A stretch of DNA of 64,000 nt from IMG/VR virus record IMGVR_UViG_3300014205_000193. One strand, 5' to 3'. This DNA is from a virus (lineage: Duplodnaviria > Heunggongvirae > Uroviricota > Caudoviricetes). The translations under genes were made by a program, and so were the position numbers. Under the pieces are notes generated by a model. That model was not told the DNA's origin, searched no databases, and was given only the letters and a program-made list of their open reading frames with translations. This document shows, in pieces, positions 45,459-54,329 of the stretch. Positions within the stretch are counted from its first letter, which is position 1, and every line of letters begins with the position of its first letter.

Positions 45459-48400
45459 ATGTCTGAAGTGACTAAGACGGTTAATCAAGTGTTGGCTGCC
45501 AGAGTATCTCAGGCGGCCGTTGACGATGCAGCTTACTTACAAGCAGTAGAAGAGGGTGATCTGTTTACTCTCCAGCAAATGGTCAAAGAGGCTGCCCGTG
45601 GCGCAGGTTATACTATCGGTCCTGTATACCATGGCGGCACTTTCAACTTGGATACTGCCTCCGCCATGAATCCGGGTAGCTATGAAGGCACCATCTTCTT
45701 TGCTGCATCAGAAGCAGACGCTGATTACTTCGGTAGTGGTTCTGATCAGTTCATGGAGCAAGGTAAAGATTATCATATCACACCTGCATATCTCACAGGT
45801 AACATATTTGATGTTGACAATAAAGCACACATAAAACAAGTTGCTTCATGGGCGGAAGACAACGATGTGGAATTAGATGAGATAGAGCAGGGTGACTATA
45901 CTTCTTTTGAAGATACAGGTTTGATACCTTATTTAAAGGAACTAGGTTTCGAAGGTTTTACAACCTACGAAGGAAATGATGGCAAGTCCTATGGCGTGTT
46001 TAACCCGTGGCAGGTTAAATCAGCGGAACCAGTTACATGGGATGATGCTGGTGAAGTGATTCCCCTGTCTAAGAGATTCAATAAGAGTACAACGGATGTA
46101 CGGGCAATGAAGACGCCTAACCAAGTGTTGGCTGCCAGAGTATCTCAGGCGGATATAGGCGACCGCATCAGCAAGTTTTGGATAACTCCTGACGGAGAAA
46201 TTATTGATGTGCATTCAGGGGAGGAGCATATTGTTGAGGCGCTTCGCCGAGGCTGGGCAGAGTTGCCCGAAGATCTGGCATTAGCTAAAGATATGGTAGA
46301 GGAAGACGGTAACGAATTCGATTATAATAATGTTGATTGGCGAGATTCATACCAAGATTATATGGAGCAGGTATGGAGTGACCTACTCTCTAAAGGGTAT
46401 GTGCGTGGTGGCCGCAGCTACCAGGCTGCATACATTATGTGTTCACATGCTGCTACCGCTGCTGCAAAGTCGGCCACTGCTTCTATTATTAAAGACTATA
46501 TCGCACAGGACATTCCGGTGCAGGTAGCAATAGATAGTTCAGATTGGATCATTACTAATAAGATAGAGTTGGGTGCGTTTTTAAGAGACAGCCATCTGAC
46601 CGCCGCAGCCAAGCAACTTGGCAGTAAGAAGCGGAAGTCTGTTAGTAAAGTGTTGACTCGTATTTTACTATATCTCCCCGAAGAGCTTTACCAAGCTATC
46701 CAAACATTTCCTACGGCAGATGCTTTTGTTAGTAAAATAGAATCACAAGATGGGGTATTGGTTAAGGCTTTTCCAATAGAACAACTAGATTTAACAACAG
46801 CATTCGCCCAACAAGAGTTGGCAGATGCTAAAACAGATTATGCCGCCGGCTATGCGCGTAAATCGAAAGACCCAGTAAGAATATTTTTAAAAGCAGATAC
46901 CAATACTTACGAGATGATTGATGGCTATCATAGGTTATATGCCACACAAGAACAAAATAAAGATACAATATCGGCTACTGTAGAAGTGTCCGGCATGGGT
47001 AAGAGCTTACATAGCCTATATCAGGCTGTTATGAGTGTTACAGCTGGTAAGAAGCGGAAGTCTGTTAATGAGGTACTGGCCGCCCGCATTGATTCAGATG
47101 AGGATAAACTCCAGCAGCTCAAGAACATGGCTGCATTATATGCCTCCGCTCCTGACTTCATTAAATCCTTCTATAAAGATGATTGGTCCGACCAGATTGC
47201 CTTCGGGTATATTAATGGTACACAGCCCGTAGACCCGAAGCTGCTCAAGATAAAGTGGCACGACGATTGGCGCAATGCCGACCCCTTCGATGTTCCTGTA
47301 GACCAGACACCACCTATTGAGGTTGTGTATGAGAAGAGTGCCTTATATGTAGAAGACGGCCACCATAGACTAAAGTCAGCCTTGAAGCAGGACGCCCCTT
47401 CTGTTTGGATAGATCTCACAATAAAGCAGTCCCCATTTACCGCACTGCCTGTGGGTGGTGACGCGGATTTAAAAAACGTATGGGAAGAAGTTCATGGCGT
47501 TAAGAAGACCGCAGACCAGGTGCTGAGCAGCCGCCTCACAGCCGCTGTTTATGATGCTTATTCTGATGGCTGGCTTGCTCCTGATGGGACATTTTATCAT
47601 ATCGATGGTGACCATGCTATTTGGGCGTGGCAGGAGAGGGTCAGGGGATTATCGAAGTGGGCAGAATACAGTAATATGGATGAGGATAGTGATGAGTTTT
47701 CCGATTTTATAGATGACTTCCGAGACGACATTTTTAATGATATGTATGACCACAATTATGTCCGCATCACAAATACGGGGCGTACTGTGACTATAGGTGG
47801 AGAGCTTACACCAAAGGCTTGTAAATTCTTATTAGGTAAACTAAGTGATTTATTTAGCTTAGATAATTCTGTGGAAGTAGAAGTTGGCGATGAGTTAATA
47901 CATGCACCTCTTCAAGACCGCCCAGCTTTCGGGGCGCTGCTTCGGCGGCTGAGAGAGGAAGCTGGATTGGAGGTGCAGGGGATGAAGAGTATTAATCAAG
48001 TGCTGAGCAGCCGGGTAAGTAATATGTCGGATAGGCTGAAACGATTGTATGAACGCCGTGGCGAGAATCCAGACGGGACTATCAATGAGTCCCTGTTAAC
48101 TCCTGTGGCGGCCGGGGTTTCTCTGGCAAAAAGATCAAGCAAGCAAACAGACTCCCCAGAGTTCAAAGCCTGGTTCGGAGATTCTAAGGTGGTAGATGAA
48201 GACGGGCAGCCGATCGTTGTCTATCACGGTAGCCAAAATCCTGATATGCAGGAGTTTGCCGATGGTCGCGTAGCTTACTTTACAGATAGCCACATCACTG
48301 CGCAGAGCTTTTCCGACCGATCATTTATGGGTGAGTCCTTGTTACCTGGAGAAGTCCCCACAGTATACGCAGCGGTGCTCAAGTTACTTAATCCGCTCGT

Positions 48401-54329: not shown

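What the first reader, a model, noticed from the sequence alone, without database searches (positions are those of the whole stretch)
45459..54329. Giant 2956-aa modular ORF reads as a phage polyvalent protein
A single gene spans about 8.9 kb, far larger than anything else in the window. Its composition is not that of a fibre or tape-measure protein. It is a string of globular modules separated by a recurring basic linker. The modules include ParB-like DGxHR nuclease-fold motifs, three ART-like domains and five copies of an unassigned domain. This matches the polyvalent-protein concept: giant multi-enzyme proteins packaged in virions and delivered with the DNA to blunt host defences. No structural genes lie nearby, and the gene is followed by a glycosylation cluster.
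Basis: partly seen in the sequence, partly recalled or inferred. Interest (0 to 1): 0.9.

Follow-up and report, generated by a model that had tools for sequence, protein, structure and literature searches.

The report
Giant modular phage multi-effector (polyvalent) protein
One 8.9-kb gene of an uncultured large phage encodes a 329-kDa string of about 17 small domains, including five predicted NAD-dependent protein-modifying enzymes, and it sits in a slot where related phages carry much shorter versions, so it shows how phages build and probably cut up large packages of host-takeover enzymes.

Summary
ORF 45459..54329 (+) encodes 2956 aa. It contains an 8-fold recurring basic linker, three Pfam ART-PolyVal domains, two ParB/Srx-fold DGxHR modules and five copies of an unassigned domain.

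It is a polyvalent protein in the sense of Iyer et al. 2017, on a phage-like 237-kb contig. Virion packaging is untested.

- The 5x 'B' domain defines a rare family (169 clusters among 1.84 billion). A confident model has a gelsolin-like fold, but the fold match is only moderate.
- Modules G and H form a second, tiny family with an ART fold and an R...W...ExE motif. That makes five ART-fold modules.
- Homology-defined module borders carry a [K/R/V]-T-A-[A/G/S] motif followed by basic residues.
- The NQVLAAR linker is unique to this protein. Adjacent copies share DNA repeats that bracket single cassettes.
- Three related contigs conserve the flanking gene order; where DNA could be compared, flanking proteins are 42-84% identical. 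In this slot they carry proteins of 646, 710 and 1006 aa with reshuffled modules and the same C-terminal tail.
- No protease domain was detected inside the protein. A DUF6527/BubE-type serine-protease gene overlaps its stop codon. Five of ten related loci have an adjacent serine-protease gene.

I infer processing in trans into separate effectors. Verdict: a new variant of a known kind.

The parts
45459..54329 (+). Giant ORF, 2956 aa, 329 kDa, pI 4.67: the polyvalent protein
   Evidence: the exact protein is on ENA contig ERZ27247358 k141_2474311, 236,752 bp
45474..45512 (+). Linker L1 (KTVNQVLAARVSQ) at the N-terminus. It shares a 43-nt repeat (93% identity, 31 nt exact) with L2
45513..46109 (+). 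Module A1: ART-PolyVal (histidine type, VYHGG), ending in PLSKRFN
   Evidence: Pfam 34.2 bits; hhalign 97.3% against an ART-PolyVal profile
46110..46148 (+). Linker L2 (MKTPNQVLAARVSQ); contains an internal Met
46146..46628 (+). Module B1: first copy of the B domain (gelsolin-like fold family), with an acidic insert
46629..46667 (+). Linker L3 (KKRKSVSKVLTRI); shares a 28-nt repeat (89%) with L4
46668..47048 (+). Module C1: ParB/Srx-fold module, DGYHR
47049..47093 (+). Linker L4 (KKRKSVNEVLAARI)
47094..47498 (+). Module C2: ParB/Srx-fold module, DGHHR
   Evidence: Pfam ParBc_2 E 0.015, below threshold; profile hits SbnI at 9e-6 and sulfiredoxin at 5e-3
47499..47537 (+). Linker L5 (KKTADQVLSSRL); shares a 17-nt repeat (94%) with L6
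47538..47978 (+). Module B2: B domain copy 2, with a very acidic insert
47982..48020 (+). Linker L6 (MKSINQVLSSRVS); contains an internal Met preceded by GAGG. The relative P0032 starts just after this point
48018..48578 (+). Module A2: ART-PolyVal (VVYHGS)
   Evidence: Pfam 48.8 bits
48579..49148 (+). Module D: unassigned. It is 47% identical to P0029 and also present in the L009 giant ORF
49149..49505 (+). Module B3: B domain copy 3 (compact form)
49506..49544 (+). Linker L7 (GRRHINEVLAAV); shares a 36-nt repeat (83%) with L8
49545..50312 (+). Modules E (aa 1363-1545) and F (aa 1546-1618): unassigned. F has homologues in P0031 and P0032
50313..50774 (+). Module B4: B domain copy 4
50775..51404 (+). 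Module G: helical N-terminal part plus an ART-fold core (R...YWA...EWE)
51405..51770 (+). Module B5: B domain copy 5 (the copy that was modelled)
51771..51809 (+). Linker L8 (GRRHINEVLAAN)
51810..52484 (+). Module H: paralogue of G (YRALAV...GVYWS...ESEME)
52485..53099 (+). Module A3: ART-PolyVal of the phrog_8642 type, with R in place of the strand-1 His (VVYRGQ)
53100..54005 (+). Module J: unassigned, about 300 aa, no detectable relatives
54006..54326 (+). Conserved C-terminal tail (YKQSxLARSV..SGSPKDVFxPLKTDDN..SAAFxH..LxALAVxKGTxAFK). The proteins in the same slot of three related phages share it
54329..54679 (+). Adjacent gene: DUF6527/BubE-family protein (116 aa), a candidate processing protease. 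Its start overlaps the giant ORF's stop by 1 nt
   Evidence: Pfam 34.5 bits against a threshold of 23.6 and phrog_3362 at 5e-25; the family was shown to be a Ser-His protease (10.1101/2024.11.21.623953)

Best explanation
This is a polyvalent protein of a large, uncultured, virulent-type phage: one polypeptide that concatenates many small, independently folding effector modules.

Shown:
- It contains at least 17 modules. Three are histidine-type ART-PolyVal domains. Two are ART-fold modules of a new R...W...ExE family (G and H). Two are ParB/Srx-fold modules. Five are copies of a new alpha/beta domain with a gelsolin-like fold (B). Modules D, E, F and J are unassigned. A C-terminal tail is conserved.
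- The modules are acidic and are joined by short basic junctions.
- The gene occupies a hypervariable slot in an otherwise conserved gene array. Related phages carry 646-1006-aa proteins there, made of reshuffled modules and ending in the same tail.

Inferred:
- The protein grew by cassette accretion. The 13-aa NQVLAAR linkers and their flanking DNA repeats are scars or substrates of that process.
- The protein is cut at the [K/R/V]-T-A-[A/G/S]-basic junctions by a protease encoded in trans. The best candidate is the translationally coupled DUF6527/BubE-type serine protease. Cleavage would free the modules to act on different host targets.
- The ART modules ADP-ribosylate host proteins or nucleic acids using NAD+. 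The ParB/Srx modules act on nucleotides or DNA.
- The constant C-terminal tail directs the whole protein to its place of delivery, most likely the capsid interior, so that it enters the cell with the DNA.

The role of the B domain is unknown. My best guess is a non-catalytic adaptor or target-binding unit that accompanies the effector modules.
For: Classification: ART-PolyVal occurs three times above Pfam's gathering score. A profile of the C modules hits ParB/Srx-fold proteins. All 27 relatives found in 5.8 billion proteins are giant ART-PolyVal multi-domain proteins.

Phage context: DnaB-type helicase, primase, helicase loader, UvsX-like recombinase, clamp, clamp loader, PolA and SbcCD-like genes, and many PHROG matches. 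ART-PolyVal modules of the A3 type occur in jumbo phages of Serratia, Erwinia, Klebsiella, Dolichospermum and Tunturiibacter.

B family: five copies. There are 169 representatives among 1.84 billion, mostly multi-copy giants. In 40 members the co-occurring domains are 2H phosphoesterase or Acb1, ART-PolyVal, GNAT, LMWPc and peptidase C39. The model has pLDDT 93.4.

Junction motif: 12 occurrences against 4.1 +/- 2.0 in shuffles. Ten of the 12 lie within 15 aa of homology-defined borders. The same V-T-A-[AGS] marks borders in the L009 relative. K-x-A-[SA] is enriched before B domains across the family.

Hypervariable slot. Between the window and L006, flanking genes are 42-84% identical, while the slot holds 2956 aa against 710 aa.

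Common tail.

Protease association: DUF6527 lies next to the giant gene here and in two relatives. Trypsin-like protease genes abut two other B-family giants, whose loci also hold the large terminase subunit about 5.5 kb away. DUF6527 is an experimentally shown Ser-His protease. The giant protein has no HExxH motif, and no Pfam peptidase family matched it.

Linker DNA repeats bracket single cassettes. The relative P0032 starts exactly where a linker ends.
Against: - No capsid, portal or terminase gene was seen within the roughly 81 kb I could read. The immediate neighbours are unknown proteins and sugar-modifying enzymes, so a late or packaged role is not supported by this locus itself.
- Cleavage is not demonstrated. 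The K-T-A-S-like motif may simply be the N-terminal cap of the B domain, since some relatives start with MKTAS. It looks the same in lineages that have different proteases.
- I could not confirm the catalytic Ser-His dyad of the DUF6527 homologue. A phage BubE could instead counteract host Bub conjugation systems.
- Five of the ten related loci have no adjacent protease gene.
- A3 lacks the strand-1 His.
Confidence: 0.62

Rival explanations
1. The modular multi-effector protein is not packaged. It is made inside the infected cell in the early or middle phase, as a polyprotein-like hub of host-takeover or anti-defence enzymes. The constant C-terminal tail serves another purpose, such as localisation, oligomerisation or regulation.
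For: The gene lies in a long same-strand block after many small ORFs and DNA-metabolism genes, and before glycosyltransferase and NUDIX genes. No structural PHROG match lies within 10 kb. The syntenic loci of the three closest relatives also lack recognisable head genes.
Against: Other B-family giants lie about 5.5 kb from the large terminase subunit. According to Iyer et al. 2017 (PMC5512222), phage-type polyvalent proteins are typically linked to packaging genes. A weak baseplate match lies about 12 kb downstream. Most neighbours are unannotatable, so the absence of structural hits is weak evidence.
Confidence: 0.3
2. The junctions and NQVLAAR linkers are only flexible spacers and recombination scars. 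The protein acts uncleaved, and the neighbouring DUF6527/BubE gene is an independent counter-defence enzyme that strips host Bub (ubiquitin-like) conjugates.
For: N4 virion RNA polymerase and several plasmid polyvalent proteins are delivered uncleaved (PMC5512222). BubE is proposed to cleave Ubl-target conjugates. The family phrog_3362 was built from proteins of phages and archaeal viruses, and the gene matches it at E 5e-25. The junction motif looks the same in lineages with trypsin-like and with DUF6527 neighbours. Five of ten loci lack a protease.
Against: Two unrelated serine-protease families abut B-family giants, with overlapping or near-overlapping start and stop codons. The two shortest slot proteins, 646 and 710 aa, have no protease. 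Relatives encode the same modules as separate or reordered ORFs whose starts coincide with junctions. The motif is about threefold enriched and sits at borders.
Confidence: 0.35
3. It is a polyvalent protein of a conjugative plasmid or ICE, delivered through a type IV secretion system rather than by a virion.
For: Iyer et al. report that about 40% of polyvalent proteins are in conjugative elements, and ART-PolyVal occurs in both contexts. The window holds transposases and a resolvase.
Against: No relaxase, coupling protein or T4SS gene was found in about 81 kb. The replisome (UvsX, clamp, clamp loader, PolA, SbcCD) is phage-like, and the best PolA matches are phage genes. Per Iyer et al., 2H and ParB associations are phage-type. 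Related giants sit next to the large terminase subunit.
Confidence: 0.04
4. It is a virion structural protein (tape measure, fibre or inner-body scaffold), or a bacterial secreted polymorphic toxin.
Against: There is no fibre, tape-measure, RHS/YD, PAAR or signal-peptide-type family in the Pfam or PHROG searches. The modules are globular enzyme folds. TRF-type tandem repeats were not examined, but the repeats seen are whole domains of 120-160 aa interleaved with different domains.
Confidence: 0.04

Closest known systems
Polyvalent proteins of phages and conjugative elements (Iyer, Burroughs, Anand, de Souza, Aravind 2017, J Bacteriol; PMC5512222)
   Same: A single giant polypeptide combines many unrelated small domains. 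The signature Tox-ART-HYD2/ART-PolyVal domain is present in several copies, together with ParB/Srx-fold domains. It is encoded by a phage-like element, and its relatives carry 2H/Acb1, GNAT, kinase and NUDIX modules.
   Different: It has no zincin MPTase or other embedded peptidase; protease genes of two other families are adjacent instead. None of the published LPD Pfam families matched. It carries R-type ART-fold modules, a class that the 2017 survey says is absent from genuine polyvalent proteins. It has a repeated gelsolin-like domain, a private 13-aa linker, and a constant C-terminal tail in a hypervariable slot. It is not next to portal or MuF genes.
Phage T4 Alt and internal proteins (packaged effectors with a capsid-targeting sequence removed by the prohead protease); P1 DarB/DdrB
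   Same: The concept is the same: enzymes, including an ART, carried in the head and injected with the DNA, with proteolytic maturation linked to packaging.
   Different: Those are separate small or medium proteins with an N-terminal targeting peptide. Here many effectors are fused, and the conserved element is C-terminal. I recalled the T4 details from my own knowledge and did not test them here.
Gelsolin/villin/severin domains (including Asgard 2DGel)
R-S-E ADP-ribosyltransferase toxins (pertussis S1, LT-A, Scabin, Rhs toxins TreX and TreTu)
   Same: The G-core model superposes on their catalytic core. There is a strand-1 Arg and an invariant E-x-E motif.
   Different: The middle S-T-S motif is replaced by Y-W-[S/A]. 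Only seven family members are known. There is no profile-level sequence link, and activity is untested.
BubE/DUF6527 serine protease of bacterial Bub ubiquitination-like operons (10.1101/2024.11.21.623953)
   Same: The neighbouring 116-aa gene product matches PF20137 above threshold and has four Cys residues suited to a zinc site.
   Different: No E1, E2 or Ubl genes are nearby. It is phage-encoded and coupled to a polyvalent gene. The catalytic dyad was not verified.

Membership tests
Polyvalent proteins (Iyer et al. 2017) | Many (2-15 or more) domains of disparate biochemical activity in one polypeptide | tested here: met
   At least 17 modules: ART-PolyVal x3, R-type ART fold x2, ParB/Srx x2, B x5, plus D, E, F, J and the tail
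Polyvalent proteins (Iyer et al. 2017) | Shares hallmark domains of the polyvalent network (ART of the HYD2 clade, DdrB-ParB, MPTase, LPDs) | tested here: met
   ART-PolyVal PF18760 scores above the gathering threshold three times. No MPTase (no HExxH) and no LPD Pfam family were found
Polyvalent proteins (Iyer et al. 2017) | Encoded by a phage or conjugative element, in the context of packaging or transfer genes | tested here: inconclusive
   The replisome and PHROG matches are phage-like. No portal, terminase or capsid gene is present in the roughly 81 kb read. More distant B-family giants lie near the large terminase subunit
Polyvalent proteins (Iyer et al. 2017) | Delivered into the recipient cell together with the DNA | not testable with these tools
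   Needs virion proteomics or infection assays
ART-PolyVal (PF18760, Tox-ART-HYD2 clade) | Profile match above the gathering score | tested here: met
   108.2 bits overall, A1 34.2 bits and A2 48.8 bits against a threshold of 31.2. A3 matches A2 at 4e-14
ART-PolyVal (PF18760, Tox-ART-HYD2 clade) | Strand-1 His of the H-Y-[D/E] active site | tested here: inconclusive
   His is present in A1 (VYHGG) and A2 (VVYHGS). A3 has Arg (VVYRGQ). The Tyr and acidic positions were not mapped
ParB/Srx superfamily | Profile similarity to ParB/Srx-fold proteins, with a conserved DGxHR Arg | tested here: met
   Profile A5 hits SbnI at 9e-6, sulfiredoxin at 5e-3, SerK and Noc. P, D, G, H and R are invariant. 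The Pfam families themselves score below threshold
DdrB-like ParB (phage P1 type) | Lineage-specific Asp/Asn at the end of strand 2 and an extra helix bearing a conserved Tyr | not tested
   No DdrB profile was available
Gelsolin/ADF-H domains | Homology (sequence or profile similarity) and actin- or Ca-binding residues | tested here: not met
R-S-E ADP-ribosyltransferases | ART fold with strand-1 Arg, S-T-S and [Q/E]-x-E | tested here: inconclusive
DUF6527/BubE serine protease (neighbouring gene) | PF20137 match above threshold | tested here: met
   34.5 bits against 23.6, and phrog_3362 at 5e-25
DUF6527/BubE serine protease (neighbouring gene) | Ser-His catalytic dyad and C4 zinc site; Bub operon partners (E1, E2, Ubl) | tested here: inconclusive
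   Four Cys are present (C20, C23, C68, C83). The dyad could not be aligned without a reference sequence. No E1, E2 or Ubl genes are in the neighbourhood
Tail fibre / tape measure / cell-wall-binding repeat proteins | Matches to structural or binding-repeat families | tested here: not met
   No such family was found in Pfam, PHROGs or NCBIfam

The most novel reading that the evidence does not exclude
The locus encodes a self-contained 'effector polyprotein' system. Cassettes of small enzymes are strung together, each bounded by a conserved T-A-[A/G/S]-basic junction. A dedicated protease encoded in trans (DUF6527/BubE here, trypsin-like in other lineages) releases them. A constant C-terminal tail addresses the whole string to the capsid. 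The rare gelsolin-fold B domains serve as per-unit adaptors that bind a host polymer or hold the neighbouring enzyme inactive until cleavage. This would be a DNA-phage counterpart of RNA-virus polyproteins, and a natural cassette-exchange platform for anti-host effectors.
Probability: 0.22. Interest if true: 0.8.

Novelty: new variant of a known kind. Interest (0 to 1): 0.62.

Why it matters
Polyvalent proteins were predicted in 2017 and remain almost untested experimentally. This locus offers a tractable natural series: four related phages with the same flanking genes and the same C-terminal tail, but 646, 710, 1006 and 2956 aa of different cargo.

It suggests three concrete, testable points:
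- How such proteins grow: by cassettes bounded by short conserved junctions and DNA repeats.
- How they are separated into working parts: by a protease gene next door rather than an embedded metallopeptidase.
- Which element is constant and may direct delivery: the tail.

It also adds two domain families to the repertoire. One is a rare repeated domain with a gelsolin-like fold. The other is an R-type ART-fold module, a class thought to be absent from polyvalent proteins. Finally, it places a BubE-type protease, so far known only from bacterial ubiquitination-like operons, in a phage context.

Tried and rejected
- Near-identical DNA in GenBank phages: no match. The contig is not in IMG/VR.
- Self-BLAST of the protein gave nothing. 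phmmer and profiles were needed to see the repeats.
- B domain against Pfam and PDB sequences: nothing.
- C2 alone against PDB: nothing. Only the 7-sequence profile worked.
- Word-indexed homologue searches for aa 1060-2345 and for the G/H alignment found one hit and no hits respectively. The relatives were recovered instead from the exhaustive profile search made for the B domain.
- The search for related loci with the B alignment failed because it has no conserved stretch. With module D it found nothing in viral contigs.
- Module E as an ART, which I suspected from FRG...ExxE: no support from hhalign or PDB, so it stays unassigned.
- G/H as relatives of ART-PolyVal: rejected by hhalign. The ART assignment rests on the predicted fold alone.
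- J as a third G/H copy or as an assemblin-like peptidase: no support.
- The 531-aa and 397-aa upstream proteins and the 1226-aa downstream protein as portal, terminase or tail proteins: no PHROG, Pfam or tblastn hits.
- NCBIfam naming: no hit.
- The afdb50 fold library was unavailable.
- The Logan contig L003 is 100% identical to the window over 11.2 kb, so I could not treat it as independent support.
- Walking along the 237-kb contig to find head genes was limited to about 17 kb beyond the window.
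Full report
**1. The observation**

A GGGAGG ribosome-binding site lies 7 nt upstream of the start. The next longest ORF in the window is 758 aa. An open frame of this length cannot arise by chance at 47% GC; that is inference from the stop-codon frequency.

The same protein is on record on an ENA metagenome contig of 236,752 bp. The window is positions about 6395-70394 of that contig, reversed. A Logan contig covering the 3' part is 100% identical over 11.2 kb, so I could not treat it as independent support.

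**2. Anatomy of the protein**

I divided the protein using Pfam envelopes, HMM envelopes of the internal repeats, and BLAST borders to relatives. In amino-acid coordinates the order is:

L1 | A1 19-217 | L2 | B1 230-390 | L3 | C1 404-530 | L4 | C2 546-680 | L5 | B2 694-840 | L6 | A2 854-1040 | D 1041-1230 | B3 1231-1349 | L7 | E 1363-1545 | F 1546-1618 | B4 1619-1772 | G 1773-1982 | B5 1983-2104 | L8 | H 2118-2342 | A3 2343-2547 | J 2548-2849 | tail 2850-2956.

Nearly all modules are acidic (pI 4.1-5.3; B3 is 6.9) and the junctions are basic. The whole protein is 329 kDa with pI 4.67.

*A1-A3.* These are ART-PolyVal (PF18760).
- The match is 108 bits overall, in three stretches. A1 scores 34.2 bits and A2 48.8 bits against a gathering score of 31.2.
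- A1 matches a 72-sequence ART-PolyVal profile at 97.3% probability in hhalign.
- A3 matches A2 at E 4e-14.
- A1 and A2 keep the strand-1 His (VYHG). A3 has VVYRGQ.

*C1 and C2.* They carry DGYHR and DGHHR.
- Pfam's ParB families are below threshold (ParBc_2 15.9 bits against 23.6).
- A profile of C1, C2 and five similar modules from relatives hits SbnI (E 9e-6), sulfiredoxin (5e-3), free serine kinase and Noc.
- The ParB/Srx fold is therefore supported. 'Nuclease' is not, because this fold also makes kinases and NTPases.

*B1-B5.* These are five homologous copies.
- B1, B3, B4 and B5 match one another in pairwise phmmer at E 5e-3 to 1e-14. B2 is significant only against B1 (about 1e-4); its membership rests on that and on the family profile.
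- They share W-I-x-P-x-G, a His, G-[YFW]-[IV]-R and NKxELG.
- Neither Pfam nor PDB sequences match.

*The linker.* The recurring linker [K/R]xxx-N-[Q/E]-V-L-[A/S]-[A/S]-R occurs eight times, and the first copy is at residues 6-18. It is absent from:
- every other reading frame of the window and of about 17 kb of flanks;
- all 176 related proteins I collected, including the closest ones.

**3. What the unassigned parts are**

*The B domain.*
- An exhaustive profile search of 1.84 billion representative proteins found only 169 with E up to 1e-3. Most are large proteins with up to 10 copies. A few are stand-alone proteins of 108-174 aa.
- In 40 of them the co-occurring Pfam domains are 2H phosphoesterase (9 members), ART-PolyVal (6), the anti-CBASS phosphodiesterase Acb1 (5), GNAT, nucleoside deoxyribosyltransferase-like, LMW phosphatase and peptidase C39. 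This is the counter-defence and host-takeover repertoire of polyvalent proteins.
- AlphaFold2 with a 36-sequence alignment gave a confident model of B5: pLDDT 93.4, pTM 0.85.
- Foldseek gave the same families, but weakly: best E 0.058, TM about 0.45.
- I therefore call it a gelsolin-like fold, not a gelsolin homologue.

*Modules G and H.*
- They share a core (phmmer 1.5e-4) with the motif [I/L]-[Y/W]-R-x-I-x-V ... G-x-G-x-Y-W-[S/A] ... A-x-A-H-W-G ... E-x-E.
- The family has seven members in everything I collected.
- hhalign finds no relation to ART-PolyVal, and the PDB sequence search finds nothing.
- With a strand-1 Arg and an invariant ExE, G and H look like R-type ARTs. [quoted passage not shown]

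*Modules D, E, F and J* stay unassigned.

**4. Junctions**

- Homology-defined borders carry [K/R/Q/V/N]-[T/D]-A-[A/S/G/K/D], usually followed by a basic run. Examples are VTAGKKRKS, KTAAKKKYT, RTAADKKKV, VTAGRRHIN and VKTASRSRG.
- There are 12 occurrences against 4.1 +/- 2.0 in shuffles. Ten of the 12 lie within 15 aa of a border.
- In a relative's giant ORF (L009), G-V-T-A-[A/G/S] marks the borders in the same way, without the NQVLAAR linker.
- Across the B family, K-x-A-[S/A] is about threefold enriched 6-9 residues before W-I-x-P-x-G.
- Some relatives begin with MKTAS. P0032 begins exactly where linker L6 ends in this protein.
- These residues have low confidence in the B5 model (first block pLDDT 64), so they are probably flexible.
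- From my own knowledge, the motif resembles the (V/L/I)-x-A|S sites of assemblin-type maturation proteases. This is a recalled resemblance, not a test.

**5. Linker DNA repeats**

Adjacent linkers share DNA-level repeats:
- L1/L2: 43 nt at 93% identity, 31 nt exact.
- L3/L4: 28 nt at 89%.
- L5/L6: 17 nt at 94%.
- L7/L8: 36 nt at 83%.

Each pair brackets one unit: A1, C1, B2 and E-F-B4-G-B5 respectively. This is what cassette insertion or duplication by recombination within linkers would leave. It would also allow further gain or loss of units.

**6. Comparative context: the most informative result**

Three relatives sit in the same gene array on other metagenome contigs. The common order is:

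a ~390-aa protein ... cupin - small ORF - [slot] - (DUF6527) - ~190 aa - GT1 ~430 aa - NUDIX - ~620 aa - ~430 aa.

| Contig | Slot protein | Module content |
|---|---|---|
| This window | 2956 aa | as in section 2 |
| L006 | 710 aa (P0032) | A2-B2-B1-F-tail |
| ERZ1426829 | 646 aa (P0050) | B-C2-B-tail |
| ERZ1426815 | 1006 aa (P0071) | B-B, with Pfam NUDIX and thymidylate kinase hits, then tail |

- Between the window and L006 the flanking proteins are 42-84% identical. The slot proteins share only four modules, at 33-49% identity and in a different order.
- All four end in the same 80-100-aa tail.
- A further relative (L009) has 1420 aa + 383 aa + at least 3690 aa at a similar place, after the same STAS and small-ORF genes.
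- The giant ORF is therefore an expanded state of a hypervariable effector slot with a constant C-terminal element.

**7. Proteases next door**

The protein itself shows no protease signature: it has no HExxH motif and no Pfam peptidase match. The gene that starts on the last base of its stop codon (54329..54679) matches DUF6527 at 34.5 bits against a threshold of 23.6, and phrog_3362 at 5e-25. DUF6527 is BubE, shown in 2024 to be a Ser-His serine protease with a C4 zinc site (10.1101/2024.11.21.623953).

- DUF6527 also follows P0071. It forms the C-terminus of the 383-aa protein between the two L009 giants.
- Two more distant B-family giants, P0035 (2651 aa) and P0038 (2034 aa), each have a trypsin-like protease gene immediately upstream. 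One of these has GNSGGP. Both loci have the large terminase subunit about 5.5 kb downstream.
- One of the 40 family members scanned has an embedded C39 peptidase.
- In all, 5 of 10 loci have an adjacent serine-protease gene, from two unrelated families. The two shortest slot proteins have none. Three others have none by Pfam.
- This is association, not proof. I could not verify the catalytic dyad of the window's homologue.

**8. Element identity**

- The window and its flanks encode primase, a DnaB-type helicase, a helicase loader, further helicases, an HNH endonuclease, DNA methyltransferases, a UvsX-like recombinase, a clamp, a clamp loader, PolA with a UDG domain (28% identical to phage PolA) and an SbcCD-like pair.
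- No conjugation genes were seen. No head genes were seen either, in the roughly 81 kb that was readable. The only structural hint is a weak baseplate PHROG match (E 3.7e-4) about 12 kb downstream.
- I rate 'large phage' at about 0.9.

**9. Mechanism**

Shown: the domain content, the repeats, the junction motif, the slot variability, the common tail and the protease adjacency.

Inferred:
- The protein is a multi-effector delivered or deployed at infection.
- It is cut at the junctions by the neighbouring protease.
- The ART modules modify host targets with NAD+.
- The tail directs delivery.
- The NQVLAAR linkers are lineage-specific cassette boundaries.

The main alternatives are that it is not packaged (probability 0.3) and that it is not cleaved, with BubE acting as an anti-Bub enzyme (0.35).

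**10. Verdict**

The thing is a member of a known class, but an unusual one. It has two new domain families, a private linker system and a comparative series that makes accretion and processing testable. Interest 0.62; a new variant of a known kind.

Noticed in passing
window 54329-54679 (+): A DUF6527/BubE-family gene in a phage, overlapping the stop codon of the giant ORF. BubE is so far described only in bacterial Bub ubiquitination-like operons. No E1, E2 or Ubl genes are nearby. It could be the polyprotein protease or an anti-Bub counter-defence.
   Followed up: partly
window 43860-45455 (+): The 531-aa protein just upstream is itself expanded. Its aa 184-318 are 68% identical to a 159-aa protein in the relative L006. 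Its N-terminus has a weak, non-significant resemblance to the G/H ART-like motif (IYRKVFLP...LGRYWTLD...ESEATV; E 0.14). Its C-terminal half is Cys-rich.
   Followed up: partly
window 55266-59201 (+), and relatives L006 and ERZ1426815: The downstream sugar-modification cluster (GT1, NUDIX, GT4-like) is conserved across the related phages. In the relatives it extends to GT2, radical SAM/SPASM and several methyltransferases. This suggests DNA or virion glycosylation, or another hypermodification pathway.
   Followed up: no
window 35678-37388 (+), 18256-19161 (+), 32962-33930 (+): A resolvase plus an IS605-type OrfB/TnpB (Cas12f-like) pair, and two further transposase-like ORFs (phrog_10081), lie inside the phage-like genome. 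A TnpB also sits upstream of the slot in relative ERZ1426829.
   Followed up: no
window ~11100-11950: There is a strand switch between the leftward replication genes (300-11883, - strand) and the long rightward gene block. GC skew changes sign at the same place (negative up to about 10 kb, positive from about 12 kb). It may be a divergent promoter region or an origin.
   Followed up: no
window 52485-53099 (module A3): This ART-PolyVal copy has Arg where the family has its strand-1 His (VVYRGQ against the consensus vvYHGT). The same subtype (phrog_8642) occurs as a stand-alone protein of about 208 aa in Serratia jumbo phages, where one record annotates it as 'PLxRFG domain-containing protein', and it also matches Erwinia and Klebsiella jumbo phages.
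   Followed up: partly
L003 13783-18436 (about 2.6-7.3 kb beyond the right end of the window): A 141-aa ORF has a weak baseplate PHROG match (E 3.7e-4). It is followed by a 1226-aa ORF with no match in any phage record. Together they may mark the start of a tail module.
   Followed up: partly
L006 4216-4530 (relative): A small Mor-like (Mu middle-operon regulator) HTH protein lies about 5.5 kb upstream of the slot in the relative. This hints that the block may be under middle or late transcriptional control.
   Followed up: no
L005 (Dolichospermum phage Dfl-JY45, 56649-73566): A cultured jumbo cyanophage carries two adjacent giant hypothetical proteins (2214 and 2387 aa). The second has ART-PolyVal modules 42% identical to A2/A3, which makes it a possible experimental model for such proteins.
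   Followed up: no
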